Source of the DNA: Alphaproteobacteria bacterium
GTDB lineage: Bacteria; Pseudomonadota; Alphaproteobacteria; UBA828
NCBI GenBank assembly: GCA_965214705.1
Contig: OZ243972.1
Location: 3,456,001-3,520,000 of the forward strand
Direction: 5' to 3'
DNA length: 64,000 bases
Under the pieces are notes generated by a model, which was given only the letters and a program-made list of their open reading frames with translations, was not told the DNA's origin and made no database searches. A program made the translations under genes and the position numbers. The number at the start of each line of letters is the position of its first letter. Within the stretch, counting starts at the first letter, position 1. Below are positions 34,308-63,269 of this stretch, in pieces.

Positions 34308-34313
34308 GCGCCG

Positions 34314-38927: not shown

Positions 38928-38933
38928 GCGCCG

Positions 38934-39812: not shown

Positions 39813-40220
39813 TATCGATCTCCCTGGATCGCGACGGCGCGCCGCCGGACCGATCCGGCGACGGTCCGTCGCAGGGGTCGATACTAACCACTGGTGATCG
39901 GGAGGCTGCTGGGGATCCGCCACCCGACGGGCGGAGCGCCACTGACGCAACCGGGAAGCGAACGCACAGAACAAACGGCACCCGCGACGCCTCGGAAATG
40001 AATGAACTCTACGCCGCTAACTCCGCGTAGCGGCTTCGTTCAACGGACCCTATAAGCCGAAAGGCGAAATGGGAAAGGATGCGCGGCGAGCAATCGGATA
40101 ACCGAATAGTACCTGAAGCCCGGCGAAAGCCGGGTGACCGCGCGAGCGGCGGCCGTGTGGGCCGGGGAAGGCGGTTGGCAGAGGTGGTCGGCGAGAGACA
40201 GCGATGAGTGAGTAAGGACC

Positions 40221-45458: not shown

Positions 45459-46478
45459 TCAGGCGGCGACGTGATGGACCGGGATGCCGAGCTGGCGGGC
45501 CTTGTCGACGAGGTTGCCGGTGATCCCGGAACCGGGGAACGCGATGACGCCCTTCGGGAGCAGGTTCAGCAGTTCGTCGTTGCGCCGGAACGGCGCGGCC
45601 TTGCCGTGCGCGTTCCAGTCCGGGCGGCAGACCACCTGGTCGACGCCGCGCGCGTCCGCCCAGCTCGCCGCGATCTTCTCGAAGCCGGGTCCGCCGCCGT
45701 GCAGCAGCACCATGTCGCCGTGCTTCTCGCGGGCGCGGTCGAGCGTGGACCACACCGCGTCCGCGTCGGCGACGTTCTTCCCGCCCGTGATGGCGACGAG
45801 CGTGCCGTCCGGCAGGTGAGCCTGGGTCTCGCGGTCCTTCCGTGCGCGCCGGAAGTCGCGGGCGTCGATGGCGGCCGAGGTGAGCCGGCGCGTCTGCGAG
45901 GTGTGCGATCCGTGCCGCGGGTGCCAGACCTGGCCGGTCTCGACGCGGTAGGCGTCCGAAGCGAAGTCGCGCATCTTCTCGAACGCGTCGCGGCGGCGGC
46001 CGAGGTCGTGGGCGCGGTCGGTGAGGTGCTCCAGCTCGAGGGCCTTCACCTCGGTGCCGTCCTGGGCGCGTTCGAGGTCGCGCATCTGCTGAACGATCCG
46101 GTCGACGGTGCGGTCGATCCGCTGGGCCTGGGCGTGCAGCATGTTCACGAAGCCCCACAGCAGGCTCTCGCGCTCGTCGGCGAGCTGCGTGCCGTCGGGG
46201 GCGACGCTCTGGATCAGGGTGTGCACGGTCTGCTCGATGCCGGCGATGGCCTCGTCCTCGTCCCAGACGAAGCGGTTGTCGATCTCGTCCGGGCCGGGGG
46301 TGGCGCCGTGCAGCGCCGCGTGGTCGCAGATGGCGGCGGTGGGCGAGCTGTAGTGCCGGGGCTCGCTGACGTCGACGTCGTAGGGGTCGATGCCGGGCAT
46401 GGTGTATCCGGCCTTCGCGAAGGCGTGGCTCATCGAGGTCTCGGTGGTCTCGATATTCTGGCTGCTGGTGTCGTTCAT
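45459..46478 (-). CDS. DUF2493 (YspA-related SLOG) protein, paralog of 25010-26689
   Basis: Strongly similar to the first two thirds of 25010-26689; RBS aaggag. Confidence 0.85.
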   Translation of the reverse strand: MNDTSSQNIETTETSMSHAFAKAGYTMPGIDPYDVDVSEPRHYSSPTAAICDHAALHGATPGPDEIDNRFVWDEDEAIAGIEQTVHTLIQSVAPDGTQLADERESLLWGFVNMLHAQAQRIDRTVDRIVQQMRDLERAQDGTEVKALELEHLTDRAHDLGRRRDAFEKMRDFASDAYRVETGQVWHPRHGSHTSQTRRLTSAAIDARDFRRARKDRETQAHLPDGTLVAITGGKNVADADAVWSTLDRAREKHGDMVLLHGGGPGFEKIAASWADARGVDQVVCRPDWNAHGKAAPFRRNDELLNLLPKGVIAFPGSGITGNLVDKARQLGIPVHHVAA

Positions 46479-46531
46479 GACGCTCTCCTTCCGTGTGGTG
46501 GGCGGGTTCTCTCTCTCCTCCCCCGCCCTGT

Positions 46532-47357
46532 TCACACCGACTCCTGCTCTTCTCTCACTCCCGCGAAGCGGACGAGGGGCGCGAGGCGTGCGGCGAACGC
46601 GGCGGAGCCGAGGGCGACGAGGTCGTCGTTGAAATCGGCGCCCTCGGGAACGAGGACATGGGCGGCGACGCGCGCGGATGCGCAGCGCCGGGCGAGGCGT
46701 TCCGCCGCGCGCTCGCCTTCCGGGTCGTTGTCGCGGGCGACGACGAGCTGCGTGACGCCGGGCGGCGGCGCGAACGCGCCGAGGCTGCCGGCCGACAGCG
46801 CGGCGGCGGCGACGGTATCCGGCAGCGCGGTCACGATGGAGAGCACCGTCTCGATGCCCTCGCCGACCAGCAGCGTGCCGGCGGCGGGCACGCCGAAACG
46901 GACGGCGAGGCCGTGGACGCGGCCGAGCGCCTTGCGCGGCCGCGTCACGGAGGCCTTTGCGGGGCGCCGGGGGTCGAGCCAGGTGCGATGGACGCCCGCG
47001 ATCGCGCCGTCGTCGCCGGTCACCGCGGCGACCAGCGCCGGCAGGCGGCGCGCGCCGTCTTCGTCGCGATGGAGGAGCGCGGGGTGGAAGCGGAGCGCGG
47101 GGAAGCGGCAGCGGTGGAGGGCGCGGGCCCGGAGATAGGCCTCGGCATGGGTGCCGTCGATGGCGCGGCAGCGCTGCCACAGGCGGCGCGCCGCCTCCGT
47201 GCGGTCATAGGAGTCGGAGCCGCCATCGGTGGCGGTCGCGGGCGGCAGCGAGAGGAAGGCGCGGGCCTCCACGAGGGCGGCGCGCAGCGAGCCCGCGCCG
47301 GAGGCGATGCGGACGAGGTCGAGCAGGTCGCCGTGCTCACCCGAGCTCGCGTCGGTC
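46532..47357 (-). pseudogene. Toprim primase-like protein, N-terminally truncated at element B
   Basis: TDA..GEHGDLLDL, GT.AE.YL..R, LRFHP, GVHRT.L, GEGIET.LS, A.DND..G..AA, DFNDDL; no start codon before the element end. Confidence 0.8.
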
Positions 47358-51095: not shown

Positions 51096-51422
51096 TCAGC
51101 GCGCGTGGCGCATGAAGTCGAACCCGCAGGCCGCAACGCCCCAGATCTGCACCCCGGATGCCTTGAGATCGAGCGCCGTGCAGATGATGATCTCGTCGCG
51201 CTCGGGGCGCATCTTCCTGACCGCGCCGGCGCTCACGATGGTGCGGCGCGGCCTGCGTCCGCCCTTCTTCTCCTTCGGCTGCTCGGCCTCGACCGGGTCG
51301 ATCTGCCCGTCGGGTCGGGAGCGGAACTTCTCGACCACGTAGCGCTCCCCGTCCAGCCCCCGCCCGAACACGTGGACCAGGAACGTGTGCGCGTTGCGAT
51401 GTGACGGCCTGCGAATCCGCAT
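51096..51422 (-). CDS. hypothetical protein
   Basis: RBS ggggagg; co-oriented just upstream of the Zn-repeat gene. Confidence 0.6.
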   Translation of the reverse strand: MRIRRPSHRNAHTFLVHVFGRGLDGERYVVEKFRSRPDGQIDPVEAEQPKEKKGGRRPRRTIVSAGAVRKMRPERDEIIICTALDLKASGVQIWGVAACGFDFMRHAR

Positions 51423-51823
51423 GGCGTGCCTCCCCTTCCTCTGGTGTGCCGACGGCCGAGGGCTCTCTCCGCAGCGCCGCCCGGCCGCCCCGCTTCCGGC
51501 CAACCGCTCGCTCCCGGCGGCGCCGGGCCGAGAGCGCGGCGCAAAGGCTGGATGGGGCGGTGGACGCCGGTGGGACGCTGCGGTGGGACGGTCAAGGGAA
51601 CGGCGAAGGGTGCCGGAGCGCGCGGCGCGAAGCTCCTCGGCCTCCCGGCCTCAGGAATCCATCAAGGTCTCGATGCGGTCCGCATTCACCGGCGGATTGG
51701 CCGCGCACAAGTGTAGCCGGGCGTCGCCGTGGGCAGGCATTCGTGGTAGTCGGTGTCTGGAAACGGGCGATGTGCCATCCGGGGATGGCGGAAGAGCACT
51801 GCTCCAGTGCAGGAGGCGGGCAC

Positions 51824-52111
51824 ATGAACAAGGCGGAGATGGCCGAGCGTTTGGCAGCCCGCACGGGGCTGAGCAAAGGCGCCGCAAGGGATGCTGTGGA
51901 CGGCGTGTTCGCCATTATCGGCGACGCGCTTGCCGATGGCGAGGAGGTCCGGCTGCCGGGATTCGGGACCTTCGGCACCAGAAGCCGGTCGGCCCGTACC
52001 GGACGCAACCCGAGCACCGGGGAGGCGGTTTCGATACCGGCGTCCACTTCGCCGACGTTCAAGGCGGGGAAGACGCTGAAGGACACCGTGAATGGTGGTC
52101 AGGGACCGTGA
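51824..52111 (+). CDS. HU-family DNA-binding protein
   Basis: MNKAE, V.L.GFGTF, R.AR.GRNP.TGE...IPA...P.FKAGK.LK. Confidence 0.95.
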   Translation: MNKAEMAERLAARTGLSKGAARDAVDGVFAIIGDALADGEEVRLPGFGTFGTRSRSARTGRNPSTGEAVSIPASTSPTFKAGKTLKDTVNGGQGP

Positions 52112-52422: not shown

Positions 52423-53166
52423 CTAGGTCGATCCCGGTGGTTCTTTCGAGAGCCATTCTGCATAGGCCAAGAGGTCGATCATGGGTACCGTGCCGCTAAA
52501 TTGAAGCCGCGCGATCAACTTGAAGAGAAAGGCTGTTGCGGGTTTGCCTCCGCAGTGTAGTTCGTATCGAGAGCCTTCCCGGTCGAAGTGGAAATAGCCA
52601 TGCGCGGCGACGCAACCGATGTCCAGACGGTCGTCGCGATCACCGGTTCCAAGAGCGCTTCGAAGCGGTTCCCCCAAGGCGGGTGACCAATCGCTCTCGA
52701 AGGTTAGCAGGCCGCCGAGTATGGGAATGAGCGGCTTTGCAGGATAGGTACCCTTTGCGTAGGGGATGGGCAGACTCGTTCGATGCAGGCGTCGCACGCT
52801 CGCGACTTTGCCCTGTGCGTACCTCACTTGGTGCGCATTCATTGTCTGTTTCGCCTCGAACACCGCATAGACGCTCTCGGCCGGAATGATCTTCTGTCCT
52901 TCGTAGCTGAATATGAACGGTGAGTACTGGCGATCGAACACTACGATGTCGATCTGCTCGCTGAACGCACCCAAGCTATCCACGACATGCGCAGTCGCGG
53001 CTTGATAGCGTTGAGGAAGGTATTTCTGGAGCATGTCCAGCCACACCACCTCACTCGCATCGCCCTTCACAACGGGATGACCGAAGCTCTTGCGGACTCT
53101 CCCCAAACGCTCTTGGATGTCGTCATGCAACTCCGCGAGCAGCCGATCTAGCGACCACTCGCTCAT
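52423..53166 (-). CDS. nucC: CBASS effector endonuclease NucC
   Basis: HP..KGDASE.VW, YLP.RY, SEQIDIVVFDRQYSP, PAESVYAVFEAKQ, K..SVRRL.RTS. Confidence 0.95.
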   Translation of the reverse strand: MSEWSLDRLLAELHDDIQERLGRVRKSFGHPVVKGDASEVVWLDMLQKYLPQRYQAATAHVVDSLGAFSEQIDIVVFDRQYSPFIFSYEGQKIIPAESVYAVFEAKQTMNAHQVRYAQGKVASVRRLHRTSLPIPYAKGTYPAKPLIPILGGLLTFESDWSPALGEPLRSALGTGDRDDRLDIGCVAAHGYFHFDREGSRYELHCGGKPATAFLFKLIARLQFSGTVPMIDLLAYAEWLSKEPPGST

Positions 53167-54104
53167 GATTCGCCGTCCTGAAACGGGGCGGTTGCCACCA
53201 TCTCGCGCGCGATTTCCAGCGCCCCGTTTGGATCCACCTCCCGCCCGGGATAGGCGTCCAGCACCATCGCCGGGAGCAACCGTTGGGTGAGGTCCGAGTA
53301 GGTGAACCCGTAGCCACCGTCTTCGCGCGGACCGGTAGCGGTCACCACCGCCTCGATCTGGTTCGGCGAGAAGCCAAGCTGCCCGAGCGCTGGCGCCAAC
53401 ACCTCGTGGCGCCTCGCGGCGTCCGGCCGCGTGAACGACAGGATCTCCGCCGCCCGGCGGCGTACCGCCGGATCGAGAGCGCCCGGCCGGTTCGTGCACA
53501 TGATGACGGCTGCCGGTAGCTTGCCGTTTCCGAGTTGGTCCACCCCCCGGATAAACGCGTTCACGCCCGCCCGGTCCTCGTGATGCATCTGCGCCGCCTC
53601 CCGCGATTGAGCCAACGCGTCCGCCTCGTCCACCAGCAGGATTACCGCCCCGCGCGAACCTCCTTCTCCGTCGACCTTGAGCTTATTCGCTTCGTCGATG
53701 GTGTACTCGAACGCGGCCGATAGAAGCTGCGTCATCTCGCCGACGCGCCCCTCTCCCCGCGTCGCGAGACTGAGCGGAAAGAGCGTGACATGGATCTTCT
53801 CTTGACGGGCGACGGCGTCACCGATCGTCTCGGCCAGCGCCGATTTTCCTGATCCGACGTCTCCGGCCAGCACGACCAAAGGCGGTCTCGCCATCACCGT
53901 TTTGAGCACCCTATCCGCGCCCGGATGATACCGCTTCGCCCATGCGTTCAGGCCATCGGTGTTCACCAAGAGCGCGAGGATCTTCGTCAGCCGCCGCTTG
54001 TGATCCTGCAACCCCACCAGCGAAGCGAGCCGTTCCTGCGGCTCGAAGTCGGGATAGACGATTCGGCGCTCGAAGAGCTCGTCGAAATCCGGCCGAACCC
54101 TCAT
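53163..54104 (-). CDS. cap6: CBASS Trip13/Pch2-like AAA+ ATPase
   Basis: Walker A GDVGSGKS, RG.G.VGEM, Walker B LLVDEADA, QMHHEDRAGVN, TNR...LDPA..RR. Confidence 0.9.
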   Translation of the reverse strand: MRVRPDFDELFERRIVYPDFEPQERLASLVGLQDHKRRLTKILALLVNTDGLNAWAKRYHPGADRVLKTVMARPPLVVLAGDVGSGKSALAETIGDAVARQEKIHVTLFPLSLATRGEGRVGEMTQLLSAAFEYTIDEANKLKVDGEGGSRGAVILLVDEADALAQSREAAQMHHEDRAGVNAFIRGVDQLGNGKLPAAVIMCTNRPGALDPAVRRRAAEILSFTRPDAARRHEVLAPALGQLGFSPNQIEAVVTATGPREDGGYGFTYSDLTQRLLPAMVLDAYPGREVDPNGALEIAREMVATAPFQDGES

Positions 54105-54619
54105 CGCCAGCTCCTAACCGTCGCGCGTTCAAGCGCGCGGCCACCCGCCGAATAGACCAGATCTGGGCGGAGGTAACCGTCGATGCCTGGTTGGGGCGCT
54201 CCGTTACGGCGGAATGGAAGACGACACCTGAAGACCTCCTTCTCCAGTGCGCTCAGACGCTCCCAAGACGAGCTGTAGGTGAGATAGCTGTAGAATGAGG
54301 CGCCGGCGACGTGCGCGCCCGGTCGCACTCGCCCAGGGTCGTCGTCGTTGGCCGAGGCGCCTGCGAGATCGCGAGCGGTATAGCGCAGCGTGGGCTCAAT
54401 CCAGTTGCCGTTGCGGCGAAAGCCGTACATCACCGTCCCGAGGTACCCTTCCTTCAGGAATTCGATCGCCTCGGCTTCGTAGTCGGCGATCTGCCTGTCC
54501 GTCGGACGCCCGTAAAATCTCTGCATCCGTTTCAAATCGGTGGCAACCTTCGCCGCAATGTGCTTTGCATGCGTGCGGGTGAAGGTCAGCGTGTCGGTAT
54601 AGGAAAAGCTTGACGTCAT
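54101..54619 (-). CDS. cap7: CBASS HORMA-domain protein
   Basis: THA.H.AAKVATDL.RMQRFYG.P, GYLG.V.YGF, WIEPTLRY, YS.GGR.L.R. Confidence 0.9.
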   Translation of the reverse strand: MTSSFSYTDTLTFTRTHAKHIAAKVATDLKRMQRFYGRPTDRQIADYEAEAIEFLKEGYLGTVMYGFRRNGNWIEPTLRYTARDLAGASANDDDPGRVRPGAHVAGASFYSYLTYSSSWERLSALEKEVFRCRLPFRRNGAPQPGIDGYLRPDLVYSAGGRALERATVRSWR

Positions 54620-54627
54620 CAGTCATC

Positions 54628-55593
54628 TCACCCCTGAAACGACGAGCCGAAGACCCGTCGCCAGTAACGTACGGTTTCCTGTTTCGTCGGTGCCGCCAAG
54701 GCAGCATCGATGGCATCGCCCGCATCGAGAGCCGCATCCACGATGGCATCCGCCTCCGATGCCGTGTAGAGCCGGCTCACGTTGTTCTTCGCGTTGACGG
54801 GGTCGATGATCTGCACCCGCTCCGCAAACCTCCCTACTGCCGATGCCGGGTAGTAGTCGGTAAAGACGATCTTCTCGCTCAGATCGCTGCGCGCAACGTA
54901 GGTGAAGAAGTGCTGAAGTGCTTCGGGGTAGTCTCCGAAGTCGAGCCCCTTGTCGCAGAGCCGCGACAATATCATCTCGACCATGAAGGACTTGAAGCGG
55001 AAGCCTTGACGCTCGCTCTTCATATTCCCGGCCCAGAACTTCACCAGTCTCACCACTTGCGCGAAGTGCTGCTCCTGGGTTTGCTTGCGCTTGCTGCAGA
55101 ACTCAAGGTGAAGCGGAATGCTCGTCTCCAGGTACGAACCGTCGTCCTGGCTCACGAGCCTCCCGTACCAATCCGGATCGCCGTCATAGAGGATTGGGAC
55201 CACGTCCACATCGAGACCCGTGCCGCGGAACGAAACCGTGACGCTGTAGGTCTTCGCTTGCACCTGATCAGGGCTGAAATTCGGGAACGCGTTGCGCAGT
55301 CGCTCCGCGAGATACTGCAGCAATGCGGTCACGTCGCCCGGCGCATCCGCCCCGCTGATGTAGCACGCCACGTCGATGTCGTTGAGCGACCGAAGCGCCG
55401 TTCCCTTCGCCAAGCTCCCCGAGAGCAGCATCTTCTTCAGCGAAAAATCCGGATGCTCCCTCAGGTAGCTCTCGAGCCGTTCGCGCAACCGCCGCGCCTG
55501 CGCGCGATATTCACTCGCCTTCTCCCTCGGCAGGTTCACCCTGTCTTGCGCGAAACGGACGATGTCACCGTGATCGACGTGTGATCGAGCCAT
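54628..55593 (-). CDS. cdnC: cGAS/DncV-like nucleotidyltransferase, CdnC-like
   Basis: SGSLAKGTAL...NDIDV, DVDVVP, FKSFM.E, IIDPVN..NNV, W..VFG..F; matches my recollection of E. coli CdnC along its length. Confidence 0.92.
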   Translation of the reverse strand: MARSHVDHGDIVRFAQDRVNLPREKASEYRAQARRLRERLESYLREHPDFSLKKMLLSGSLAKGTALRSLNDIDVACYISGADAPGDVTALLQYLAERLRNAFPNFSPDQVQAKTYSVTVSFRGTGLDVDVVPILYDGDPDWYGRLVSQDDGSYLETSIPLHLEFCSKRKQTQEQHFAQVVRLVKFWAGNMKSERQGFRFKSFMVEMILSRLCDKGLDFGDYPEALQHFFTYVARSDLSEKIVFTDYYPASAVGRFAERVQIIDPVNAKNNVSRLYTASEADAIVDAALDAGDAIDAALAAPTKQETVRYWRRVFGSSFQG

Positions 55594-55797
55594 GTTCGCT
55601 CTCTCAATCGGGGCTGCGAGGACCGGAGATGTCCCGGGTCGGGTAGTGAAATCCCATGAAATGAGTCCTCTGTTGACGGCTGAGCCGACCGTTGATTCAC
55701 ACTCAGCTTCACATGTAGCACCGCCGCGCTCGACTTTCAAGGGGTTTTGGTTCACTATTTTCTTCACACATATGAAGGAGGTAAGGAGAGCCATGAC

Positions 55798-56616
55798 ATG
55801 ACCGAACCGACGCAGCTGAATCCCAAGCCGATCCCGGAGGTGCACCTGGATCGGGCGCCCCTGGCGCGTGTTCTCGCCCAAGCGCGCTTCCCGCCCATCC
55901 TCGCCATCAGCAAGGCCGACGAGGTTGCTTCATTCCAGGAGGCACTGCGCGATACGTATCCCAATCTCAGCCGTGACCAGGTTCACAGCATTGAACTCGC
56001 CGGCGGGCAGACGCCAAACGTACAGCAGGGCCTGATCTGGCGCCTCGCCGATGGCGAGACCGAGCCCGCCTGGCGCGTGTCGCTGGGGGTGGACTTCGTG
56101 GCGCTGGAGACCTCGGACTATGACAGCCGGGACGATTTCCTCGCTCGCCTCGGCGATGTCCTCTCTGCGGTTGAGGAATCGTTCAACCCCGCATCGGCCA
56201 GTCGCCTCGGGGTGCGCTACATCGACCGGCTCACCGGCGCGGCGGTCGAACGAATCGGTGAGCTTATCCATGCCGAGATTCTCGGCGTCCTCCAGCCCAC
56301 CGATACACTGGACTCCTCGCTCAGAGAATCCGTCATCCACCAGATAACCGAGGCGCAGTTCCGGGCCCCGGGTGGTACACGTGTCCAAGGTCGTTGGGGC
56401 CGACTGCCCGCCAACACGACATACGACCCTAACGCCCTCGACGCCGTCGAAGTGCCGAGCTGGGTTCTGGACCTCGACATGTTCACGACCCAATCCCAGG
56501 ACTTCGTCACCGAAGACCTGGTGACAACTGCGAGGACCTCCGCAGAATGCCTCTATTGGCTCTTCCGCCAGATGGTTACGATGGAGTTCCTCAGGTTCCA
56601 CGGAGGCGAACCATGA
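55798..56616 (+). CDS. TIGR04255-like protein
   Basis: L..APL..VL.Q.RFP, FVALET..Y..R.DF, RLG.RYIDR, W.LDLD, LF...VT..FL. Confidence 0.75.
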   Translation: MTEPTQLNPKPIPEVHLDRAPLARVLAQARFPPILAISKADEVASFQEALRDTYPNLSRDQVHSIELAGGQTPNVQQGLIWRLADGETEPAWRVSLGVDFVALETSDYDSRDDFLARLGDVLSAVEESFNPASASRLGVRYIDRLTGAAVERIGELIHAEILGVLQPTDTLDSSLRESVIHQITEAQFRAPGGTRVQGRWGRLPANTTYDPNALDAVEVPSWVLDLDMFTTQSQDFVTEDLVTTARTSAECLYWLFRQMVTMEFLRFHGGEP

Positions 56617-57317
56617 CCGCAAGCGCCCTGCGCGGCACACGGGACAGATATACACCGGTGCTTGGTAGCATGTGCCTCTCCATGCCCAACGCTGACTTTC
56701 CGACCGTGCTGTTTGCGACGCCTTGGCCAGAAGGCACGAGCGTCAACACCTGCCCCCACGGTTCGATGACGATGTGGACGATCGTCGCGCCGCATGTTGA
56801 GCGCACCGCTGCCGATCCCGTCGGGCGTTGCAACTTTCTCCTTGAGCCCGCGGAATCCACAGCCGAGGCCATCATGGAGATCCGCCGCCGGTCCGGGCTG
56901 ACGTGGCAGGAACTCGGTGAGCTGTTCGACGTCTCGCGACGCAGCATCCATCACTGGGCGAACGGTAAACCAGTCAGCGCCGGGAACGATCGAACGATCC
57001 GACGGATGCTGGCGGCGATCCGCCATCTCGACCGGGGCAGCCAGCGCGACACCCGCGCCCTGTTGCTCTCGATCGACCAGGCTACGGGGGTCTCGCCACT
57101 CGACCTCCTGCAGGCCGGACGATTCGACGACGCCACGACCCCCTTCCTGGGCGACTGGACGCCCGAGCCTCACCGTGTGCCGCTGTCGCCGGCCGCCCAG
57201 GATGCGCGCCGCCCGCCGGCCGCTACGCTTCTGCTGGGGGCCGAGCAGGATCGGCCCGACATCCCGGCCAAGGCCCGCACCGTCCGGCCTATGCGCACGC
57301 CAGGAACGTCGGGTTAG
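56613..57317 (+). CDS. XRE-family HTH protein with long flanking extensions
   Basis: EIRRRSGLTWQELGELFDVSRRSIHHWANGK; ATGA overlap with the upstream gene. Confidence 0.8.
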   Translation: MTASALRGTRDRYTPVLGSMCLSMPNADFPTVLFATPWPEGTSVNTCPHGSMTMWTIVAPHVERTAADPVGRCNFLLEPAESTAEAIMEIRRRSGLTWQELGELFDVSRRSIHHWANGKPVSAGNDRTIRRMLAAIRHLDRGSQRDTRALLLSIDQATGVSPLDLLQAGRFDDATTPFLGDWTPEPHRVPLSPAAQDARRPPAATLLLGAEQDRPDIPAKARTVRPMRTPGTSG

Positions 57318-57323
57318 CGCTTC

Positions 57324-58196
57324 GTGGCCTTGACGGAGGAGGACGAACAAGCGATTGACCAGGCCCTCCAGGCTTGGCGTCAGGGAGATGTGTCTCTCGA
57401 CACCGGCCTGGAGTTCCTTCATCTCGCGGACCTGTCCCGTCCGCACAGCCCTGCATCCATGCAGGCGGCTGAGACGGCTGTAGAGGAAGGAGAGGCCATC
57501 GCGGCTGTCGCCACGCCCGTGATGGACGAAGTGCGCGGCATGGCGATGCTCAGCCAGACCTGTGACGTCGTCCGAAGCTGTCGCGCCCGGCCATTCGTCG
57601 AGGTCGCGGCTCTTGTCGAGGTGCCGGAGCCATGGGTCGAAGAAATCCGCCGCCTCAAGCGGCCCGCCTTCGCTCATGTACCAGCCACAGACGACCAGCA
57701 GCTCGTCGCCGACCTTGATCGCGTCATGACCGTCGAAAAGGCTCTCGTCGCAGGATGGACACGGATTCCCGGCTGGGACACCGACGAAGAGCTGCGCGAC
57801 TTCGCCCAATCCCTCGCCCGCAAGCGATCCCGCTTCGCCTTTCCCGACGATTTCGTTGCCGCGGCCAGCCGCCTCCAGGCGCATATGGTCGCGAGGCACA
57901 ACAGACAGACCGACGAGGGCGCCCATCTCCGGGCGCTGCGCGAGATCCGAGTGCGCGTCGCGCCATCCTGGGACGCTGACCAAGTTCTGTTGAGCTGGTG
58001 GTTCGTCAAGGACGGTGATCCGCCTGACATTCCCGCCGATTGGCCGGCACTGCTCGATCGGTGGCTTGCATTGTTCGAGCAAGACGAGAGCGGCCGGTTC
58101 CGCCTCGATCCGCCTATCGCCTGCCGGCTGGATGACATGGCGGCGCGCGAATACGTCGAGAGCGACCGGCTCGACCTCGACCGGCTTTCGGCTTGA
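57324..58196 (+). CDS. uncharacterised protein with PemK/MazF-like N-terminal pattern
   Basis: WRQGDV ... AMLSQTCD ... FVEVAAL ... VADLDRVMTVEK, then RFAFPD and a C-terminal domain. Confidence 0.65.
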   Translation: MALTEEDEQAIDQALQAWRQGDVSLDTGLEFLHLADLSRPHSPASMQAAETAVEEGEAIAAVATPVMDEVRGMAMLSQTCDVVRSCRARPFVEVAALVEVPEPWVEEIRRLKRPAFAHVPATDDQQLVADLDRVMTVEKALVAGWTRIPGWDTDEELRDFAQSLARKRSRFAFPDDFVAAASRLQAHMVARHNRQTDEGAHLRALREIRVRVAPSWDADQVLLSWWFVKDGDPPDIPADWPALLDRWLALFEQDESGRFRLDPPIACRLDDMAAREYVESDRLDLDRLSA

Positions 58197-58227
58197 TGAC
58201 AGTCCAAAGGCGCTTCCCGAGAGCACG

Positions 58228-58249
58228 GCCATCCGCCTAGGCGGATGGC
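58228..58249. other. perfect 22-bp palindrome after the three-gene operon
   Basis: gccatccgcctaggcggatggc; no U-tract. Confidence 0.6.
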
Positions 58250-58276
58250 GGTTCCCCCTGGGAAGATGGGGGCCCC

Positions 58277-58643
58277 ATGGCGATCACCAGGCAGCAAGTT
58301 GTCGAGGCGCTCGAAGAAGGAATTGGAGCGGCGAATAGAAGGTACGAAGCTTGGACCAACGGATCCTGGGTCCGGGCCGCCGAACGGCCTGTCGTCGCGC
58401 ACAAGCACATACGTTCTCGCGATCGACGACTTCGAGCGTCTGACGAACGCTGCGGCGAACGAGCAGATTGAGCTGCCTGCATTCTTGGCTTCGTGTGTTG
58501 GTGGTGATGAGGGGCCGGAGACGGCGCTGCACCTGTTTGAGCAGCATCTGAACAGACGACAGATACCCCTGCGGTTTTCCCGGACAGTCGAACAGGCTGT
58601 AGAAGCCAGCTTGGCAAGGCTGGAAGAAGGGCTGAGTGGTTGA
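58277..58643 (+). pseudogene. fused or frameshifted gene fragments
   Basis: MAITRQQVVEALEEG..WTNGSW in one frame; YVLAIDDFERL..LEEGLSG in another. Confidence 0.4.
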
Positions 58644-59005
58644 AGCAGATGCATGGCGGCGGGGTGCGCGCGGCGCTGAACCGTGCCGGGTTCTTCTCAC
58701 TCGGACAGATTTCCAGGGGTGCAGTCTTTGCCTGGTCTAATGAACGACGTGGACTGGTCTGCCCCGAAAGCGCTTTGAACGAAGCCGCTACGCGGAGTTA
58801 GCGGCGTAGAGTTCATTCATTTCCGAGGCGTCGCGGGTGCCGTTTGTTCTGTGCGTTCGCTTCCCGGTTGCGTCAGTGGCGCTCCGCCCGTCGGGTGGCG
58901 GATCCCCAGCAGCCTCCCGATCACCAGTGGTTAGTATCGACCCCTGCGACGGACCGTCGCCGGATCGGTCCGGCGGCGCGCCGTCGCGATCCAGGGAGAT
59001 CGATA

Positions 59006-59884
59006 ATGACCGGGACCGCGTGCGACACGAACACCGTCACCCCTCTTCGCCAGCGCATGGAGGAGCAGCTCCGCATCGCCAATCTGGCCGCGAGCACGTC
59101 CAAGGCCTACATCTGCGAGATCAAGAACCTGGCCAGGTACTACGACGCCTCGCCGGACGAGCTCGACGCCGAGCAGGTGCGCCAGTGGTACCTGGGGCGG
59201 ATCGACAAGGGGCTCAGTCCGGGCACGACCAACGTCTCCTTCGCCGCGCTGAACTTCCTCTACATCGACACACTCGGCTGGCCTGACCATGTCGCCGGCC
59301 TGCGCTCCCGCAAGAAGCCCGGCAAGCTGCCGCGCTACATGTCGGAGCAGGAGGTCGAGCACCTCATCCTTGCGACACCCGACCTCCGCCACCGTGCTGC
59401 CATTGTCACCGGCTATGGCGGCGGGCTCCGCATCTCCGAGACCTTGGCCATCAAGGTCGGCGACATCCTGTCGGAGAAGAAGCTGCTGCACATCCCCTCC
59501 GGCAAAGGCGGCACCGAGAGAATGGCACCGTTGCCGGACATCGTCATCCACTACTTGCGCGTCTACTACAGGAACATCTGGCCGCGTCCGACGAGCTGGC
59601 TCTTCTACGGCGTCTCGCTCGACAGGCCCATCGCAACGGAGACCTTGCAGGCCGCCTTCAGGAGGGCGCGCGACATTGCCGAGCTCGACCGCAGCTACAC
59701 CTTCCATTGCCTGCGCCATTCGGCGGCGACCCATCTCCTCGAGCGCGGCGGCGATATCGAGGTGATCCGGGACATGCTCGGCCATCGAAGCGCGAACACG
59801 ACCCGTCACTACGCCCGCGTCACCGGCAAGATGTTCGAGGGCCTCGACCACCCGATCTCAGGCTTCGCAGCGTTGCGCAACTGA
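59006..59884 (+). CDS. tyrosine recombinase
   Basis: Same protein as in copies 1 and 2. Confidence 0.95.
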   Translation: MTGTACDTNTVTPLRQRMEEQLRIANLAASTSKAYICEIKNLARYYDASPDELDAEQVRQWYLGRIDKGLSPGTTNVSFAALNFLYIDTLGWPDHVAGLRSRKKPGKLPRYMSEQEVEHLILATPDLRHRAAIVTGYGGGLRISETLAIKVGDILSEKKLLHIPSGKGGTERMAPLPDIVIHYLRVYYRNIWPRPTSWLFYGVSLDRPIATETLQAAFRRARDIAELDRSYTFHCLRHSAATHLLERGGDIEVIRDMLGHRSANTTRHYARVTGKMFEGLDHPISGFAALRN

Positions 59885-60187
59885 CGGCGCGTGGAGGCCG
59901 AACGCGCGGGCGTGGCGGAGATCTTCCGCCGCGCCGGCGCCGCTTTCCGTGAGCGCCACAAAGGGCGCATCGACGCCGCCCGGCTCAAGGTCATGGGCGC
60001 CATCGAGGCGTGCCGCACCGCCGTGCTCGGCGGCCACATGTACGCCTGCGAGGGCTGCGGGCGCGAGCATCCGCTCTTCAGATACCATGAGCACGGTGGC
60101 ACCGAATCGATTCTGGCGGTTAGACAAGCTCGGAGAGAAGGCCAGCACCTTCTCTCCGAGCGGAATCGTCAACAACGGAGTGGACGG

Positions 60188-61384
60188 ATGTCGGATGGTC
60201 CAGACACGACCGCGCTGACAGGCGCAAGTAGTAGCACGATTTATGTCGCGGTGGAGATCAGCCTCAAATCGTGGATCGTTGGCGTGCATTGCCCGGATGC
60301 CTCGGGTGGCAGCATCAGCATCCACACACTGGCTGCTGCCGACACGGCGGGACTGTTGGATCTCGTCGGGTCGGTGCGGGAACGGGTGGCGAGGGAGCTC
60401 GGCGCCCGTCCTCGGGTGATGCTGACCTACGAGGCGGGCTACGAGGGGTTCTGGCTTGCCCGCGATATCGAGCGCCGTGACGCGGAGATCGATATCTTCA
60501 TGAACGATCCGGCGAGCCTGCGGGTGAACCGGCGCGCCAAGAAGAAAAAGACCGACCGTATCGACGCGAGGAGGATGGTTCGGGCTCTGAAGGCATGGGA
60601 CCAAGGCGATTCGGAGGCCATGTCCTGGGTGCGCGTGCCCGATGTGGACCAGGAGGATGCCAAGCGCCTGCTGCGCGAGAGGGACACGCTGATCAGCGAG
60701 CGTACCCGCGTCAACAACCGGATCAAAGGGCTCTTGCAGTTGCACGGCATCTTCGATCTGGCGCCGCGCAAGCCGGACTTCCTCGAACGCCTCGCGACCG
60801 CGCGGACGGGCTATGGGGCGCCGTTGCCGCCGCGTGCGCGGGCAGAGATTGAGAGGGCGGTGGGGATGCTTCGCCTGGTTGAGGAGCATATCGAGATGAT
60901 CGAGGCCGAGAAGAGGGCCCTGCTGAAGGCTGGCCGGAAAGCCCAGGACGCGACCAATCGTGACGGGACGGCGATGATCGCGGCGCTTACGCGCATCCAT
61001 GGCATCGGCCTCAATGACGCCACACTGCTGGCTGGCGAGGTGTTCTATCGGGACTTCCGCAATCGCCGGGAGTTGGGCAGCTGGGCCGGGTTGACGTCGG
61101 TGCCGTGGGCGAGCGGAGATGTCGACCACGATCTTGGCATCAGCAAGGCCGGCCCCTCGCATGTCAGGAAGCACATGATCCAGATGGCTTGGCGCTGGCT
61201 GAAGCTGCAACCGGAAAGCGCGATCACGAAGTGGTTCCACGCCTACGTCGCCAGGGATGCCGGTGGCGGGAGGGACCGGCGAGCGAGGAAGCGGGCGATC
61301 GTGGGGGTCGCGCGCAAGCTGCTGATCGCGCTGTGGCGCTATGCCACCCAAGGACTGGTGCCTGAGGGCGCCATCGTCTCCTGA
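60188..61384 (+). CDS. IS110-family recombinase
   Basis: YVAVEIS, YEAG..GFW, KTDRIDA, IHGIG, F.NRR.LG..AGL...P..SG, ISKAG, AIV.VARKL. Confidence 0.92.
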   Translation: MSDGPDTTALTGASSSTIYVAVEISLKSWIVGVHCPDASGGSISIHTLAAADTAGLLDLVGSVRERVARELGARPRVMLTYEAGYEGFWLARDIERRDAEIDIFMNDPASLRVNRRAKKKKTDRIDARRMVRALKAWDQGDSEAMSWVRVPDVDQEDAKRLLRERDTLISERTRVNNRIKGLLQLHGIFDLAPRKPDFLERLATARTGYGAPLPPRARAEIERAVGMLRLVEEHIEMIEAEKRALLKAGRKAQDATNRDGTAMIAALTRIHGIGLNDATLLAGEVFYRDFRNRRELGSWAGLTSVPWASGDVDHDLGISKAGPSHVRKHMIQMAWRWLKLQPESAITKWFHAYVARDAGGGRDRRARKRAIVGVARKLLIALWRYATQGLVPEGAIVS

Positions 61385-61720
61385 GGGCACCGGCCGAACG
61401 AACGGGAAAATACAGGAGGTTCCGACGTGGTCGGACGCGGCCGCGGAGGATGCCGGGCAAGGCGTGTGACCGGGCAAGAGTTGGGTCGCCGCTTGGCACC
61501 GTTCTACAGATGGGTCCCGCCTCCCGGAACGTCACCACCGCTTGGATGCGGTATTGGGGTCACGGAGCCGGCAAGCGCCGGAGTTCCGAACCGGATAAGA
61601 GCTGAGCAGCGTGGCGGATCGCTGCGTGGAAACGACGTTCTGCCTGGACATCGGCCGCGGATTCGAGTGGAGAGATTGCGAATGCCATTGACGTAGATGA
61701 AGCCGGGCCTTGCGGAGAGA
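61385..61720 (+). ncRNA. candidate bridge/seek RNA region
   Basis: Non-coding 3' arm of an IS1111-type element with short matches to the donor junction and target. Confidence 0.5.
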
Positions 61721-63269
61721 GCTCATAAGAACTCCTGCCGCAACCGCCACTGCCCCACCTGCCAGGGTCTCGCCGCCAACCTCTGGAGCGAGGAGCGCGC
61801 CGGGGACATCCTGCCGGTGCCCTACTTCCATGTGGTCTTCACCCTGCCCAAGGAGGTTGCCGCCATTGCCTTCTGCAACCGCAGGGTGGTGTTCGACATC
61901 CTCTTCCGGGCCGTCGCCGAGACCCTGCGCACCATCGCCGCCGATCCCCGCCACGGCGGCATGCGCATCGGCGGCACCGCGGTCCTCCATACCTGGGATC
62001 AGAAGCTCCGCTTCCACCCGCACCTGCACGTGGTCGTGCCCAACGCGGGCTTCGACGTAGACAGTGGCGAGTGGAAGACGGGGAGCACCACCTTCCTCGC
62101 CCCCGTCAAGGTCCTCGGCAGCCTGTTCCGCCGCCTCTTCCTCGAGGAGCTCGCCCGCGCCCACGGCCGGGGGGACCTGGAGTTCCACGGCACCCTCGCC
62201 CACCTCGCCAATCCCGGCGAGTTCCACGCCACGCTTGCCGCCGCCCGGGCCAGGGACTGGGTGGTCTACGCCAAGCGGCCCTTCCGCGGGCCTGAGCAGG
62301 TCTTCCGGTACCTCTCGCACTACACGCACAGGATCGCCATCTCCGACAGCCGCATCGTCTCCTTCGACGGCGAGACGGTCTCCTTCCGCCACCGAAAGCC
62401 CAAGGCGCCGGGGCAGAGAAAGCCGCGCTACGGCATCGCCACCGTGAGCGCCGACGAGTTCATCCGCCGCTTCCTGAGGCACGTCCTGCCGGACGGCATG
62501 CACCGCATTCGCTACTTCGGCATCCTCGCCAACGGCTGCCGCGCCAGCACGCTGGAGAGAGCACGCCAGGCTCTCGGCGCCCTCGGCTGCGCCGCCCCCG
62601 AGGGAAGCGTGGACGGCGCTCGGGCCGAGCCCGACGAAGAGCCCGAGATCGGCACCGCGCCCGTGGCCTGCCCCCACTGCGGCGGCGTCATGCGCCTCGT
62701 CCGCGAAATCCGCCGCCGCCATGAGCCCCGCTCGACGCGCGGCCCGCCGGCGCTGCCGCCGACCCACAGGGGGAAACCGTGAGACGCCCGCTCGCTTCGG
62801 CCCCGCGCAACGGCGCCAAAGCGCCGACGCACGACCGAACCTGTCTCCGCTTGAGCCGGGCTGACAGCCCTCGGCTCACACCCCGCTCAGTCCTCGCAGC
62901 GTGCGCCCGCATGCCTGCCGAAAGACCGGCGCGAGCGTCGATTTTATGCGCAACTCTGCTGCCGGTGGATGCCGCCTGACGCTGACATCAGCGCACTTTC
63001 CACATAGCTCAACTTCGCCTCTCGTGGCCCGCGGCTTCGTTCAAAAGGGTTGGGCAGGCTCTCGAGAGAGAGCCTGCCCAACCCTTAACCTTGGCAAACG
63101 TGTGCCCAGAAGCTCTTCCCTCCAGTGGAAAGCCGGGCGACTCGACAAGGATTCATCGATCCACCTCGTCCGATCCATCGCAGCAGATAGGAATTCTGGC
63201 TTGCCGACGGCGGTATATGGTATAGGCAAGCAACCGGAGCGCCACGCTAGGCGAAAGGGAGGCACAACG

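What the first reader, a model, noticed from the sequence alone, without database searches (positions are those of the whole stretch)
55594..58249. Uncharacterised TIGR04255-like / HTH / PemK-like operon divergent from CBASS
Seen: three tightly coupled genes share a 204-bp divergent spacer with cdnC. Gene 2 is an XRE HTH with long extensions; gene 3 follows a MazF/PemK-like pattern (QGD..hhhSQxCD..hxVAxh..ADLxxhxTVxK) plus an extra C-terminal domain. Known: this position is often held by CapH/CapP or CapW regulators, and tripartite toxin-antitoxin-chaperone systems sense phage proteins. Inference: an undescribed tripartite defence/TA system or a new CBASS regulatory or backup module, possibly with the TIGR04255-like protein as chaperone or sensor.
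Basis: partly seen in the sequence, partly recalled or inferred. Interest (0 to 1): 0.75.

Follow-up and report, generated by a model that had tools for sequence, protein, structure and literature searches.

The report
Conserved three-gene toxin-antitoxin-like cassette
A widespread, unnamed three-gene cassette (a protein of unknown function, a DNA-binding regulator and a protein folded like the MazF toxin) sits beside a CBASS immune operon and is most likely a self-contained toxin-antitoxin-type module, not a dedicated CBASS part.

Summary
Three + strand genes face a type III CBASS operon across a 204-bp spacer: g1 55798-56616, g2 56613-57317, g3 57324-58196.

- **g1** is a TIGR04255 protein (129 bits, cut-off 30).
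- **g2** carries an XRE-type HTH. Its profile weakly matches the antitoxin MbcA.
- **g3** has no family hit. Its model (pLDDT 95) has a MazF/Kid/CcdB-fold N-domain (Z 10.0) plus an extra alpha/beta C-domain.

The trio is one portable unit:
- 52 of 53 related loci with enough upstream DNA keep g1-g2-g3 in order.
- 53 of 53 keep the 4-bp g1/g2 overlap.
- 48 of 49 distinct upstream regions carry a TTCACA-N6-TTCACA direct repeat (background: 1 hit in 895 kb).
- Only 2 of 33 flanks scanned hold a CBASS cyclase.

TIGR04255 genes in general lead compact three-gene operons (27 of 29) with interchangeable downstream pairs, one of them a canonical PemK pair.

In this clade the spacer still holds a 17-codon stub of an earlier, different CD-NTase, so CBASS operons were swapped in one slot.

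Best reading (0.55): an autonomous tripartite toxin-antitoxin-like or abortive-defence cassette. Toxicity, binding and defence are untested. No name was found in PADLOC, in Pfam (g1, g3), or in papers searched for 'TIGR04255'.

The parts
55798..56616 (+). g1: TIGR04255 family protein, 272 aa; first gene of the cassette
   Evidence: NCBIfam TIGR04255 scores 129.3 bits against a cut-off of 30. No Pfam, PADLOC or PDB sequence hit. The AF2 model has pLDDT 89.8 and a duplicated beta-alpha-beta2-alpha fold. The best full-length fold matches are guanidino-kinase catalytic domains, Z 7.5-8.3 with 170-190 residues aligned. 19 of 24 listed strain differences fall at codon position 3.
56613..57317 (+). 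g2: XRE-type HTH protein, 234 aa, with N- and C-terminal extensions; putative repressor/antitoxin
   Evidence: HTH_31 and HTH_3 hits at residues 87-133. In the family, 36 of 46 members hit HTH_3 and 25 of 46 hit Xre-like-HTH. The profile matches MbcA antitoxin 6fkg_C at E 7.4e-4 over profile positions 91-174. The 4-bp overlap with g1 is kept in 53 of 53 non-redundant loci.
57324..58196 (+). g3: 290-aa protein; N-domain (~14-172) with MazF/Kid/CcdB fold, C-domain (~170-290) alpha/beta; putative toxin/effector
   Evidence: pLDDT 95.2. Foldseek MazF E 3.3e-4. VIA Z 10.0, 9.3 and 9.0 to MazFs and 8.5 to CcdB. The C-domain scores Z 7.2 to MafI2 and 6.0-6.2 to MNT-type proteins. The family is large: 2016 hits and 1088 clusters at 50% identity with E<=0.001. 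Invariant residues are W18, Q20, G21, D22, G72, C80, L131, R170 and P174.
55696..55713 (+). Distal operator candidate: TTCACA-N6-TTCACA direct repeat
   Evidence: Invariant in the 8 close loci aligned in A6. On the - strand it overlaps the -10-like hexamer of a leftward promoter-like site (inference).
55751..55768 (+). Proximal operator candidate: TTCACT-N6-TTCACA direct repeat, overlapping the -35/spacer of the likely trio promoter
   Evidence: The strict motif occurs in 48 of 49 distinct 160-nt upstream regions; the 49th has one mismatch. Background is 1 hit in 895,348 nt.
55735..55740 (-). Invariant TTTCAA (TTGAAA on the - strand) between the two repeat pairs: candidate -35 of a leftward promoter towards cdnC
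   Evidence: Invariant columns in A6. The promoter role is inferred from consensus only. The simple scan did not call it.
55604..55657 (-). 17-codon stub ORF with Shine-Dalgarno: remnant of the 5' end of an earlier, different CD-NTase gene; ends 10 nt before the cdnC ATG
   Evidence: The intact 420-aa cyclase of L009 starts at the homologous place. L004 keeps a frameshifted copy (three pieces, 78-87% identity). The DNA homology of the window to L002, L003, L004 and L009 starts at 55623.
55594..55797 (.). 204-bp divergent spacer between cdnC and g1
   Evidence: No Rfam match.
52423..55593 (-). Neighbour, not part of the cassette: type III CBASS operon. cdnC 54628-55593, HORMA 54101-54619, TRIP13 53163-54104, NucC 52423-53166.
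   Evidence: NF041116 CBASS cyclase 415 bits. bacHORMA_1 E 3.3e-58. PADLOC TRIP13 E 4.1e-129 and NucC effector E 3.3e-108.

Best explanation
The three genes form an autonomous, horizontally mobile cassette of the tripartite toxin-antitoxin or abortive-defence kind. g3 is the effector. Its MazF/CcdB-fold domain carries its own invariant polar set (Q20, D22, Q78, C80, D81, T136, E138, K139) and is joined to an extra alpha/beta domain. g2 is the DNA-binding partner. Its invariant HTH most likely binds the TTCACA-N6-TTCACA direct repeats over the cassette's own promoter (autorepression). By analogy with Xre/MbcA-type antitoxins, it also holds g3 in check. g1 (TIGR04255) is an accessory component translated together with g2. 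It is the constant first gene of a wider set of three-gene cassettes whose downstream pairs are swapped, so it most likely senses a trigger or controls the stability or activity of the middle protein. It probably does not act on one particular toxin. In this window the cassette lies in a mobile, lower-G+C island, back to back with a type III CBASS operon. That operon replaced an earlier CBASS in the same slot. g2 may also gate the leftward (cdnC) promoter here, but that is a local extra, not the cassette's purpose. Shown: gene structure, conservation of the unit, the folds, the repeat element, and modular reuse of TIGR04255. Inferred: toxicity of g3, neutralisation by g2, operator binding, the role of g1, and any defence function.
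For: Unit conservation:
- The trio keeps its order and strand in 52 of 53 loci with at least 1650 bp upstream of g3. The exception, L005, is cut off within about 420 bp of the g3 start and keeps only part of g2, among unrelated ORFs.
- The g1/g2 4-bp overlap is kept in 53 of 53 non-redundant loci. The g2-g3 gap ranges from -20 to +18.
- DNA homology to four loci in other contexts covers exactly 55623-58189.
- RefSeq plasmids of Chroococcidiopsis and Rhizobium carry the same trio, annotated as TIGR04255 / regulator or hypothetical / hypothetical.

Folds:
- The g3 N-domain has the MazF/Kid/CcdB fold.
- The g2 profile matches MbcA at E 7.4e-4. Xre-like-HTH is hit in 25 of 46 members.

Cis element:
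- The repeat occurs in 48 of 49 upstream regions, against 1 background hit in 895 kb.
- Distant class-C relatives (L096, L101, L106) show short direct repeats of other sequence upstream of g1, by my reading of the printed DNA, as expected if the operator follows the HTH. L110 shows none in the stretch printed.

Modularity:
- 27 of 29 TIGR04255 loci in other genomes have two tightly following same-strand ORFs.
- These fall into at least five classes.
- One class is a 95-aa gene plus a PF02452 PemK toxin, E 1.1e-18.
- Another class's third gene is a probable distant relative of the g3 core (hhalign probability 81.5%, E 1.1e-5, 71 columns, aligning the SxTCD and ADLD motifs).

Context:
- By my reading, 22 of 33 scanned flanks hold a defence or mobile-element hallmark within 2.8 kb. 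Examples are OLD-TOPRIM plus UvrD, pAgo, HsdR, AbiV, AbiEii, TOTE primase, TrwC, Rep3/ParA and serine recombinases. No background control was run.

Weak hints:
- In-frame TAG stops occur in g3 of 3 of 56 loci, one at the invariant Q of WRQGD. None occur in g1 or g2.
- One 524-aa natural g2-g3 fusion exists, a single sequence.
Against: - Toxicity, neutralisation, DNA binding and phage defence were not tested and cannot be tested here.
- g3 has no sequence-level link to PemK/MazF: no PF02452 hit at E<=0.1, and hhalign to a real PemK gives probability 0.5%.
- The column that would hold MazF's catalytic Arg is variable in the family by my reading. If g3 is a toxin, its chemistry is therefore probably not MazF's.
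- At 290 aa with a second domain, g3 is unlike classical ~110-aa MazF toxins.
- g1 has 37 invariant columns among 46 sequences that are mostly 40-50% identical, many of them Arg, Asp or Glu. That looks more like an enzyme or ligand binder than a passive chaperone.
- No homologue of g3 was found in 50,697 phage records.
- The nonsense-mutation count is small. If three stops fell at random by gene length, all three would land in g3 about 1 time in 20.
- The g2-g3 fusion may be a frameshift or an assembly error.
Confidence: 0.55

Rival explanations
1. The trio is chiefly a transcriptional control module for the neighbouring immune operon, in the manner of CapH/CapP, CapW or CapK/CapS. g2 represses cdnC, g1 senses a signal and inactivates g2, and g3 is a co-opted extra.
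For: - The trio sits in the divergent upstream position usual for such regulators.
- Two repeat pairs flank an invariant TTGAAA on the - strand.
- In this clade a cyclase gene has sat in the same slot at least twice: the intact patatin-type CBASS in L009, its frameshifted copy in L004, 5' stubs in the window, L002, L003 and L006, and the type III CBASS now in the window and L006.
- Contigs of other samples also bridge cdnC, the spacer and g1.
- The abstract of PMC13373217 describes a sensor-repressor pair that both regulates immune operons and occurs as a TA system with a VapC-like toxin. That is a precedent for both roles in one module.
Against: - Only 2 of 33 scanned flanks hold a CD-NTase.
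- 0 of 6 loci with relatives of the L009-type cyclase (27-50% identity) have the trio within 1.5 kb.
- The repeat element and promoter travel with the trio in every context.
- No M78 peptidase, WYL, STAS or GHKL kinase domain was found in the trio.
- The PADLOC capH hit is only E 0.0016 over the 38-residue HTH.
Confidence: 0.12
2. g3 is not a toxin. The MazF/CcdB-like barrel serves as a nucleic-acid-binding or protein-binding domain. The trio would then be a non-toxic housekeeping or regulatory operon of mobile elements, for example maintenance, transfer control or anti-defence.
For: - MazF's catalytic positions are not visibly kept, and there is no sequence link to PemK.
- g3 is highly conserved: the best 120 listed hits have 67-87% identity.
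- The trio is frequent on conjugative plasmids and near relaxases and recombinases.
- A shared fold shows no function.
Against: - The operon layout (HTH gene directly before a MazF-fold gene, tight coupling, own operator) is the layout of type II TA systems.
- One TIGR04255 cassette carries a bona fide PemK toxin in the third position.
- In-frame stops are seen only in g3.
Confidence: 0.18
3. The roles are permuted. g1 is the active enzyme or the promiscuous neutraliser, and g2 is only the transcriptional regulator, as in three-gene systems with a separate regulator. g1 could be a Panacea-like antitoxin that serves many toxins. Alternatively it could be a guanidino-kinase-fold enzyme that modifies g2, g3 or a target.
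For: - g1 is the constant member while the downstream pairs change.
- The middle genes of the other classes have no detectable HTH.
- g1 has 37 invariant columns rich in Arg, Asp and Glu.
- Its best full-length fold matches are arginine, glycocyamine and creatine kinases and McsB (Z 7.5-8.3, 170-190 aligned).
Against: - Z about 8 lies at the level the tool calls common for models without a true match. TBP and AdoMetDC score nearly as well (Z 6-7).
- The PF00217 model finds nothing in the window's genome.
- hhalign of the g1 family to a real guanidino kinase gives probability 0.04%.
- No fused forms of g1 were found that would point to a partner.
Confidence: 0.15

Closest known systems
MazEF / PemIK (Kid-Kis) and CcdAB type II toxin-antitoxin systems
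   Same: The g3 N-domain has their SH3-like barrel fold (Z 10.0-7.6 to MazF/Kid, 8.5 to CcdB). A DNA-binding gene lies directly upstream in one operon. The trio sits on plasmids and in islands.
   Different: - No sequence-level membership.
- 290 aa with an added C-terminal alpha/beta domain.
- A different invariant residue set (WRQGD, SQTCD).
- The antitoxin candidate is a 234-aa XRE-type protein, not MazE/PemI/CcdA.
- A third, larger gene leads the operon.
Toxin-antitoxin-chaperone (TAC) systems with a SecB-like chaperone, including CmdTAC
   Same: Three genes are involved. A constant accessory protein is combined with different toxin-antitoxin pairs. I saw only the abstracts and search listings of PMC9098466, PMC11618068 and 10.1101/2024.02.24.581848.
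   Different: g1 is not SecB-like. It has no SecB family hit, and its fold is a duplicated beta-alpha-beta2-alpha unit. The gene order is accessory-first, not last. No chaperone-addiction segment has been identified.
Xre/MbcA/ParS-type antitoxins (partners of MbcT, RES and ParT toxins)
   Same: The g2 profile aligns with MbcA over its HTH and the following helices (E 7.4e-4). PF20432 Xre-like-HTH is hit in 25 of 46 members.
   Different: All scores are below the curated cut-offs. The partner is a MazF-fold protein, not an ART/RES-fold toxin. g2 has a further ~80-aa N-terminal part.
CBASS-associated regulators CapH/CapP, CapW and CapK/CapS
   Same: Divergent upstream position next to a CD-NTase operon. 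An HTH repressor candidate is paired with a possible sensor. CapK/CapS-like proteins also occur with a VapC-like toxin (abstract of PMC13373217; abstracts listed).
   Different: No M78 peptidase, WYL, STAS or anti-sigma-kinase domain is present. The trio is mostly found without CBASS: only 2 of 33 scanned flanks hold a CD-NTase.
Type II Gabija GajC (split MazF-like effector)
   Same: It is a MazF-like fold recruited as the presumed effector of a defence system (passages of PMC13069673).
   Different: GajC pairs with a UvrD-type helicase, GajB, and its MazF-like domain is split by a five-helix insertion. g3 pairs with TIGR04255 and an HTH protein and has a terminal extra domain. Kinship was not tested because no GajC sequence was at hand.
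Panacea (PanA) hyperpromiscuous antitoxin domain
   Same: One conserved protein family is combined with many unrelated partner genes in compact operons (abstract listing; passages of PMC10440598).
   Different: TIGR04255 is a separate gene in three-gene operons, not a two-gene TA. It has no SocA_Panacea hit, and neutralisation by g1 is not shown.

Membership tests
TIGR04255 family (NCBIfam) | Whole-protein score over the curated cut-off of the TIGR04255 model | tested here: met
   g1 scores 129.3 bits against a cut-off of 30, covering profile positions 2-249 of 252.
PemK/MazF toxin family (PF02452) | Sequence match to the family model | tested here: not met
   No Pfam family at E<=0.1 for g3. 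hhalign of the g3 family to a genuine PF02452 protein gives probability 0.5%.
PemK/MazF/CcdB superfamily (fold level) | SH3-like barrel fold of MazF/Kid/CcdB covering a whole toxin chain | tested here: met
   VIA Z 10.0 (102 of 105 residues, rmsd 2.8) to 8zws_A, 9.3 to 4mzm_A and 8.5 to 1vub_A. Foldseek E 3.3e-4, probability 1.00.
PemK/MazF toxin family | Catalytic residues of the RNase site (Arg in the beta1-beta2 region and Thr/Ser partner) | not testable with these tools
   No residue-level superposition is returned. By my reading of alignment A1, the residue before invariant G72 is variable. This suggests, but does not prove, that the Arg is lost.
Type II toxin-antitoxin system | Toxin inhibits growth, and the antitoxin neutralises it by direct binding | not testable with these tools
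   Needs expression and rescue tests and co-purification.
Type II toxin-antitoxin system | Adjacent co-oriented genes with a DNA-binding antitoxin and an operator at their own promoter | tested here: met
   Layout. HTH. The conserved direct repeat is present in 48 of 49 upstream regions. Binding itself is inferred.
TAC (toxin-antitoxin-chaperone) | SecB-like chaperone as the third component | tested here: not met
   No SecB family hit for g1, g2 or g3.
CapH/CapP CBASS regulator pair | M78/IrrE-type metallopeptidase (CapP) next to the HTH repressor | tested here: not met
   No Peptidase_M78 hit in the trio. capH model hit only E 0.0016 over residues 80-118 of g2.
CapW regulator | wHTH-WYL-WCX architecture | tested here: not met
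   No WYL or related family in g1-g3.
Dedicated CBASS accessory module (any kind) | Homologues regularly encoded beside CD-NTase operons | tested here: not met
   2 of 33 scanned flanks hold a CD-NTase. 0 of 6 loci with relatives of the L009-type cyclase have the trio. Stubs show an older link inside one clade only.
Xre/MbcA/ParS antitoxin family | Xre-like HTH followed by the toxin-binding helical domain, over family thresholds | tested here: inconclusive
   Profile against MbcA E 7.4e-4, 22.6 bits. PF20432 best E 4.2e-4, under the cut-off, in 25 of 46 members.
Guanidino (phosphagen / McsB) kinases, PF00217 | Sequence match to the ATP-gua_Ptrans model and conserved ATP-binding arginines | tested here: not met
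   PF00217 finds no match in the window's genome. hhalign of the g1 family to a PF00217 protein gives probability 0.04%.
Guanidino kinase / glutamine synthetase-like fold | Whole-domain structural match | tested here: inconclusive
   Z 8.3 (184 aligned, rmsd 4.0) to 4rf7_B and 7.5-7.7 to McsB chains. TBP and AdoMetDC reach Z 6-7.
Type III CBASS (the neighbour) | CD-NTase with HORMA, TRIP13-like ATPase and an effector | tested here: met
   (cyclase 415 bits; HORMA E 3.3e-58; TRIP13 E 4.1e-129; NucC E 3.3e-108).

The most novel reading that the evidence does not exclude
TIGR04255 proteins mark a large, undescribed superfamily of three-gene conflict cassettes. A guanidino-kinase-fold enzyme or sensor comes first and is translationally coupled to an adaptor or repressor. 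Together they control interchangeable effectors, including a new SxTCD branch of the MazF/CcdB fold. In the window's clade the same repressor-operator unit also acts as a fixed 'socket' that drives whichever CBASS operon recombines into the divergent slot.
Probability: 0.2. Interest if true: 0.85.

Novelty: new variant of a known kind. Interest (0 to 1): 0.7.

Why it matters
If the reading holds, several things follow.
- A family with over a thousand 50%-identity clusters gains a testable function. It occurs on plasmids and islands of Alphaproteobacteria and Cyanobacteria, with weaker partial matches in Actinomycetota.
- A curated 'function unknown' family (TIGR04255) gains a defined genomic role as the leading gene of modular three-gene cassettes.
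- The MazF/CcdB fold gains a branch with a different invariant residue set, and so probably a different chemistry.
- The conserved TTCACA-N6-TTCACA element gives an immediate handle for regulation experiments.
- The cyclase stub in the spacer shows how whole CBASS operons are exchanged at one slot while the neighbouring regulatory DNA stays. This bears on how defence islands are assembled and expressed.

Tried and rejected
- **Complex prediction.** I sent three chains (g1, g2 and g3 with locus-matched alignments, g2 as partner). The verdict was 'no answer (no support, and no evidence against)'. It is not used either way.
- **Sequence searches of solved structures.** Nothing for g1 or g3, single or as profile. 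The two hits are chance matches to a PDZ protein at E about 1.
- **Profile comparisons.** hhalign of the g3 family to a PemK toxin gave probability 0.5%. hhalign of the g1 family to a guanidino kinase gave probability 0.04%.
- **Family libraries.** PADLOC and PHROGs gave nothing for g1 and g3 beyond one PHROG of unknown function at E 0.012. PADLOC on 36 proteins of other TIGR04255 cassettes gave only one class-A middle gene matching candidate PDC-M32A at E 6e-8.
- **Rfam** on 55400-58800: no match.
- **Promoter and terminator scan:** nothing useful in the spacer.
- **Phage records:** no g3 relative.
- **Fused or longer forms.** For g3: one g2-g3 fusion and one doubtful 1253-aa protein. For g1: one partial hit of 43% coverage.
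- **ESM Atlas:** only 'TIGR04255' or 'hypothetical' clusters without Pfam.
- **Earlier findings of this scan:** nothing to show.
- **Literature.** 'TIGR04255' occurs in 0 papers. Searches on tripartite TA plus MazF, on NetFlax and on the Cap regulators found no description of this trio in the listings and passages I read. Supplements were not opened, so a listing there is not excluded.
- **Sequencing runs:** no RNA holder listed.
- **Locus searches.** The search for related loci with the 65-row alignment failed for lack of a conserved stretch. The single-protein scan of genomes found only 4 loci.
- **Mis-set coordinates** were corrected.
- **First gene call.** My crude G+C3-based gene caller mis-called the trio region in the window and was not used for it.

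Full report
**1. What is there.** On the - strand the window carries a complete type III CBASS operon:
- cdnC 54628-55593 (NF041116, 415 bits)
- a bacterial HORMA gene 54101-54619 (E 3.3e-58)
- a TRIP13-like ATPase 53163-54104 (PADLOC E 4.1e-129)
- a NucC endonuclease 52423-53166 (E 3.3e-108)

Across a 204-bp spacer (55594-55797), three + strand genes follow one another:
- g1 55798-56616
- g2 56613-57317, whose ATG overlaps the g1 stop as ATGA
- g3 57324-58196, a GTG start 6 nt after the g2 stop

The island from about 52 to 58.7 kb has 60-66% G+C, against about 65-74% in the 8 kb to its left. It lies among IS91-type elements with partner integrases, group II intron genes and a TrwC relaxase.

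**2. The three proteins.**

g1 is a clear TIGR04255 member (129.3 bits, cut-off 30). It has no Pfam, PADLOC or PDB sequence match.

g2 has an XRE-type HTH at residues ~80-135, just under Pfam's cut-offs.
- Across 46 family members, HTH_3 is hit in 36 and the antitoxin-type Xre-like-HTH in 25.
- A profile of the family matches the antitoxin MbcA over the HTH and the helices behind it (E 7.4e-4).

g3 matches no family library and no solved structure by sequence. It nevertheless belongs to a large family: 2016 hits at E<=0.001 among 90% clusters and 1088 clusters at 50% identity.
- With a 65-sequence alignment, AlphaFold2 gave a model of pLDDT 95.2.
- Foldseek puts S. aureus MazF first (E 3.3e-4, probability 1.00).
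- An independent all-against-representatives search gives Z 10.0 to MazF-mt3 (102 of 105 residues, rmsd 2.8), 9.3 to SaMazF, 8.5 to CcdB and 7.6 to Kid, all over residues ~14-172.
- Residues 170-290 form a second alpha/beta domain. Its best matches are middling: MafI2 Z 7.2 and MNT-type nucleotidyltransferase domains Z 6.0-6.2.

So the fold guess is confirmed, but family membership is not. There is no PF02452 hit, and a profile comparison with a genuine PemK protein aligns only the first strand (probability 0.5%).

**3. The trio is one unit.**
- A scan of metagenome contigs gave 80 loci with g3 relatives (43-76% identity). A genome scan gave 4 more.
- Of 53 loci with at least 1650 bp upstream of g3, 52 carry g1-g2-g3 in the same order and strand. 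The exception is L005: its g3 match stops after 117 residues, only part of g2 is left, and unrelated ORFs lie on both sides.
- All 53 non-redundant trios keep the 4-bp g1/g2 overlap. g2 and g3 lie between -20 and +18 nt apart.
- At the DNA level the window is homologous to L002, L003, L004 and L009 only from 55623 to 58189. That is the three genes plus about 175 bp upstream. With L006 the whole CBASS-plus-trio block is collinear (52429-58189, 78% identity).
- Annotated conjugative plasmids of Chroococcidiopsis thermalis and Rhizobium etli carry the same three genes, named only 'TIGR04255 family protein', 'transcriptional regulator' or 'hypothetical protein'.
- Contigs from other samples laid on the window bridge cdnC, the spacer and g1. 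Of the 24 differences listed inside g1, 19 are at third codon positions (the table was cut).

**4. A conserved cis element.**
- Aligning the upstream DNA of eight close loci showed two copies of a direct repeat, TTCACA-N6-TTCACA, at 55696-55713 and 55751-55768. An invariant TTTCAAGGGG lies between them.
- The strict pattern TTCA[CT]-N7-TTCA[CT] occurs within 160 nt upstream of g1 in 48 of 49 distinct upstream regions, and the 49th has one mismatch. It occurs once in the remaining 895,348 nt (both strands) of the same sequences.
- In many loci the downstream half-site sits 17-18 nt before a TATAAT-like hexamer, by my reading. It would then be the -35 of the cassette's promoter.
- Other classes of TIGR04255 cassettes lack the motif. 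Three of the five distant relatives of this class (L096, L101, L106) show short direct repeats of other sequence instead, by my reading of the DNA printed; L110 shows none in the stretch printed.
- An invariant HTH with an invariant repeat that changes when the HTH diverges is what an autoregulating repressor would give. The binding itself is inferred.

**5. TIGR04255 in general.**
- The family model found matches in 32 of 401 genomes of the same phylum.
- Of the 29 loci fetched from other genomes, 27 have two tightly following same-strand ORFs of at least 80 aa behind the TIGR04255 gene. One is cut by a contig end and one has none (mechanical ORFs).
- The downstream pairs fall into at least five unrelated classes.
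- One locus has a 95-aa gene and a PF02452 PemK toxin (E 1.1e-18).
- The third gene of another class shares the QGD and SN[TS]CD motifs. It is a probable distant relative of the g3 core (hhalign probability 81.5%, E 1.1e-5, 71 columns).
- TIGR04255 is therefore the constant leader of modular cassettes.

The g1 fold (pLDDT 89.8) is a duplicated beta-alpha-beta2-alpha unit.
- Its best whole-length matches are catalytic domains of arginine, glycocyamine and creatine kinases and of McsB (Z 7.5-8.3, 170-190 aligned).
- Such Z values are at the level the tool calls common.
- TBP and AdoMetDC score 6-7.
- There is no sequence support.
- I treat the kinase-like fold as a lead only.

**6. Relation to CBASS.**
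- Pfam scans of 126 flanking ORFs from 33 loci found a CD-NTase beside the trio in only two. L006 has the same type III operon. L009 has a different operon, with a patatin effector.
- By my reading, 22 of the 33 flanks hold some defence or mobile-element hallmark. I ran no background control.
- The window's spacer holds a surprise. A 17-codon - strand ORF with a Shine-Dalgarno sequence (55604-55657) is homologous to the 5' end of the L009 cyclase.
- L004 keeps a frameshifted copy of that cyclase (three pieces, 78-87% identity). L002, L003 and L006 keep short stubs.
- In this clade the trio was therefore once paired, back to back, with a patatin-type CBASS. In the window and L006 a type III operon now occupies the same slot, 10 nt behind the stub.
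- The invariant TTGAAA on the - strand, 17 nt before a weak -10-like hexamer that overlaps the distal repeat, could be the leftward promoter. This is consensus reading only.
- From the CBASS side the link is not general. 6 of 401 genomes of the class have relatives of the L009 cyclase (27-50% identity), and none has the trio within 1.5 kb.

**7. Weighing.** The layout is that of a type II toxin-antitoxin operon with a third, leading component: an HTH gene directly before a MazF-fold gene, tight coupling, its own operator, and a home on mobile elements and in defence islands.

Small hints point the same way:
- In-frame TAG stops occur in g3 of 3 of 56 loci, one at the invariant Q of WRQGD. None occur in g1 or g2.
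- One natural g2-g3 fusion exists.

Against it:
- No function was tested.
- g3 lacks MazF's sequence signature and probably its catalytic Arg.
- g1 looks more like an enzyme than a chaperone.

I put 0.55 on an autonomous tripartite TA-like or abortive-defence cassette. I put 0.12 on a primary role as regulator of the neighbouring immune operon. I put 0.18 on a non-toxic mobile-element function and 0.15 on permuted roles, with g1 as neutraliser or enzyme.

**8. Novelty.**
- PADLOC 2.0 has no model for g1 or g3, nor for the other cassette classes apart from one weak domain hit.
- 'TIGR04255' appears in none of about 8.4 million papers and preprints searched.
- The papers I looked at on tripartite TA systems, NetFlax, MazF-like Gabija and the Cap regulators do not describe it. 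I read abstracts or passages only and no supplements.
- DefenseFinder models were not available.
- I rate it a new variant of a known kind: a tripartite TA-like module with a new accessory family and a new branch of the MazF/CcdB fold.

Noticed in passing
window 33066-35354, 37686-39974, 58844-62782: Three copies of a pair made of a 346-aa tyrosine recombinase and an IS91-type (Y2_Tnp) transposase. In the third copy the transposase frame carries IS110-type domains in its middle (59891-61381) and resumes at 61697-62779, which suggests one element inserted into another. High-depth contigs of other samples start at about 58775, probably the element's end.
   Followed up: partly
window 40221-41528 and 41808-43670: Two group II intron reverse transcriptase/maturase genes side by side.
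   Followed up: no
window 28863-32618 (-): TrwC-type relaxase/helicase whose match starts at profile position 69. Together with the IS elements, this suggests an integrated conjugative element or plasmid remnant around the CBASS/trio island.
   Followed up: no
window 45462-47180 (-): 573-aa protein with a C-terminal YAcAr (YspA/cpYpsA-related SLOG) domain, a domain often linked to nucleotide-signal conflict systems.
   Followed up: no
L002 1046-4096 and L003 2774-4099: In two MAGs the trio is preceded on the opposite strand by a conserved 289-aa protein without any Pfam family. In L002 it is also preceded by a DUF6765 protein, a 237-aa protein and a 337-aa protein. This may be another unnamed island system.
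   Followed up: no
L006 5681-6583; L024 1988-2833; L050 2961-3815: g3 carries an in-frame TAG stop in these three metagenome loci, at the invariant Q of WRQGD in L006. The three stops are all TAG.
   Followed up: partly
L086-L115 (TIGR04255 loci of other genomes): At least four further classes of TIGR04255-led three-gene cassettes have no family hits. Examples are a class whose middle gene has a WDGYG motif and weakly matches PADLOC candidate PDC-M32A, and a class whose third gene has a GLTCATF motif.
   Followed up: partly
window 58229-58248: Perfect 9-bp-stem hairpin with a 4-nt loop, 33 nt after the g3 stop and without a T run. It lies outside the conserved module, and its folding energy is not unusual for the composition.
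   Followed up: yes
window 51401-52108 (+): HU-type DNA-binding domain at the C-terminus of a 236-aa ORF with a long Arg/Pro/Ser-rich N-terminal part. The true start may lie further downstream.
   Followed up: no
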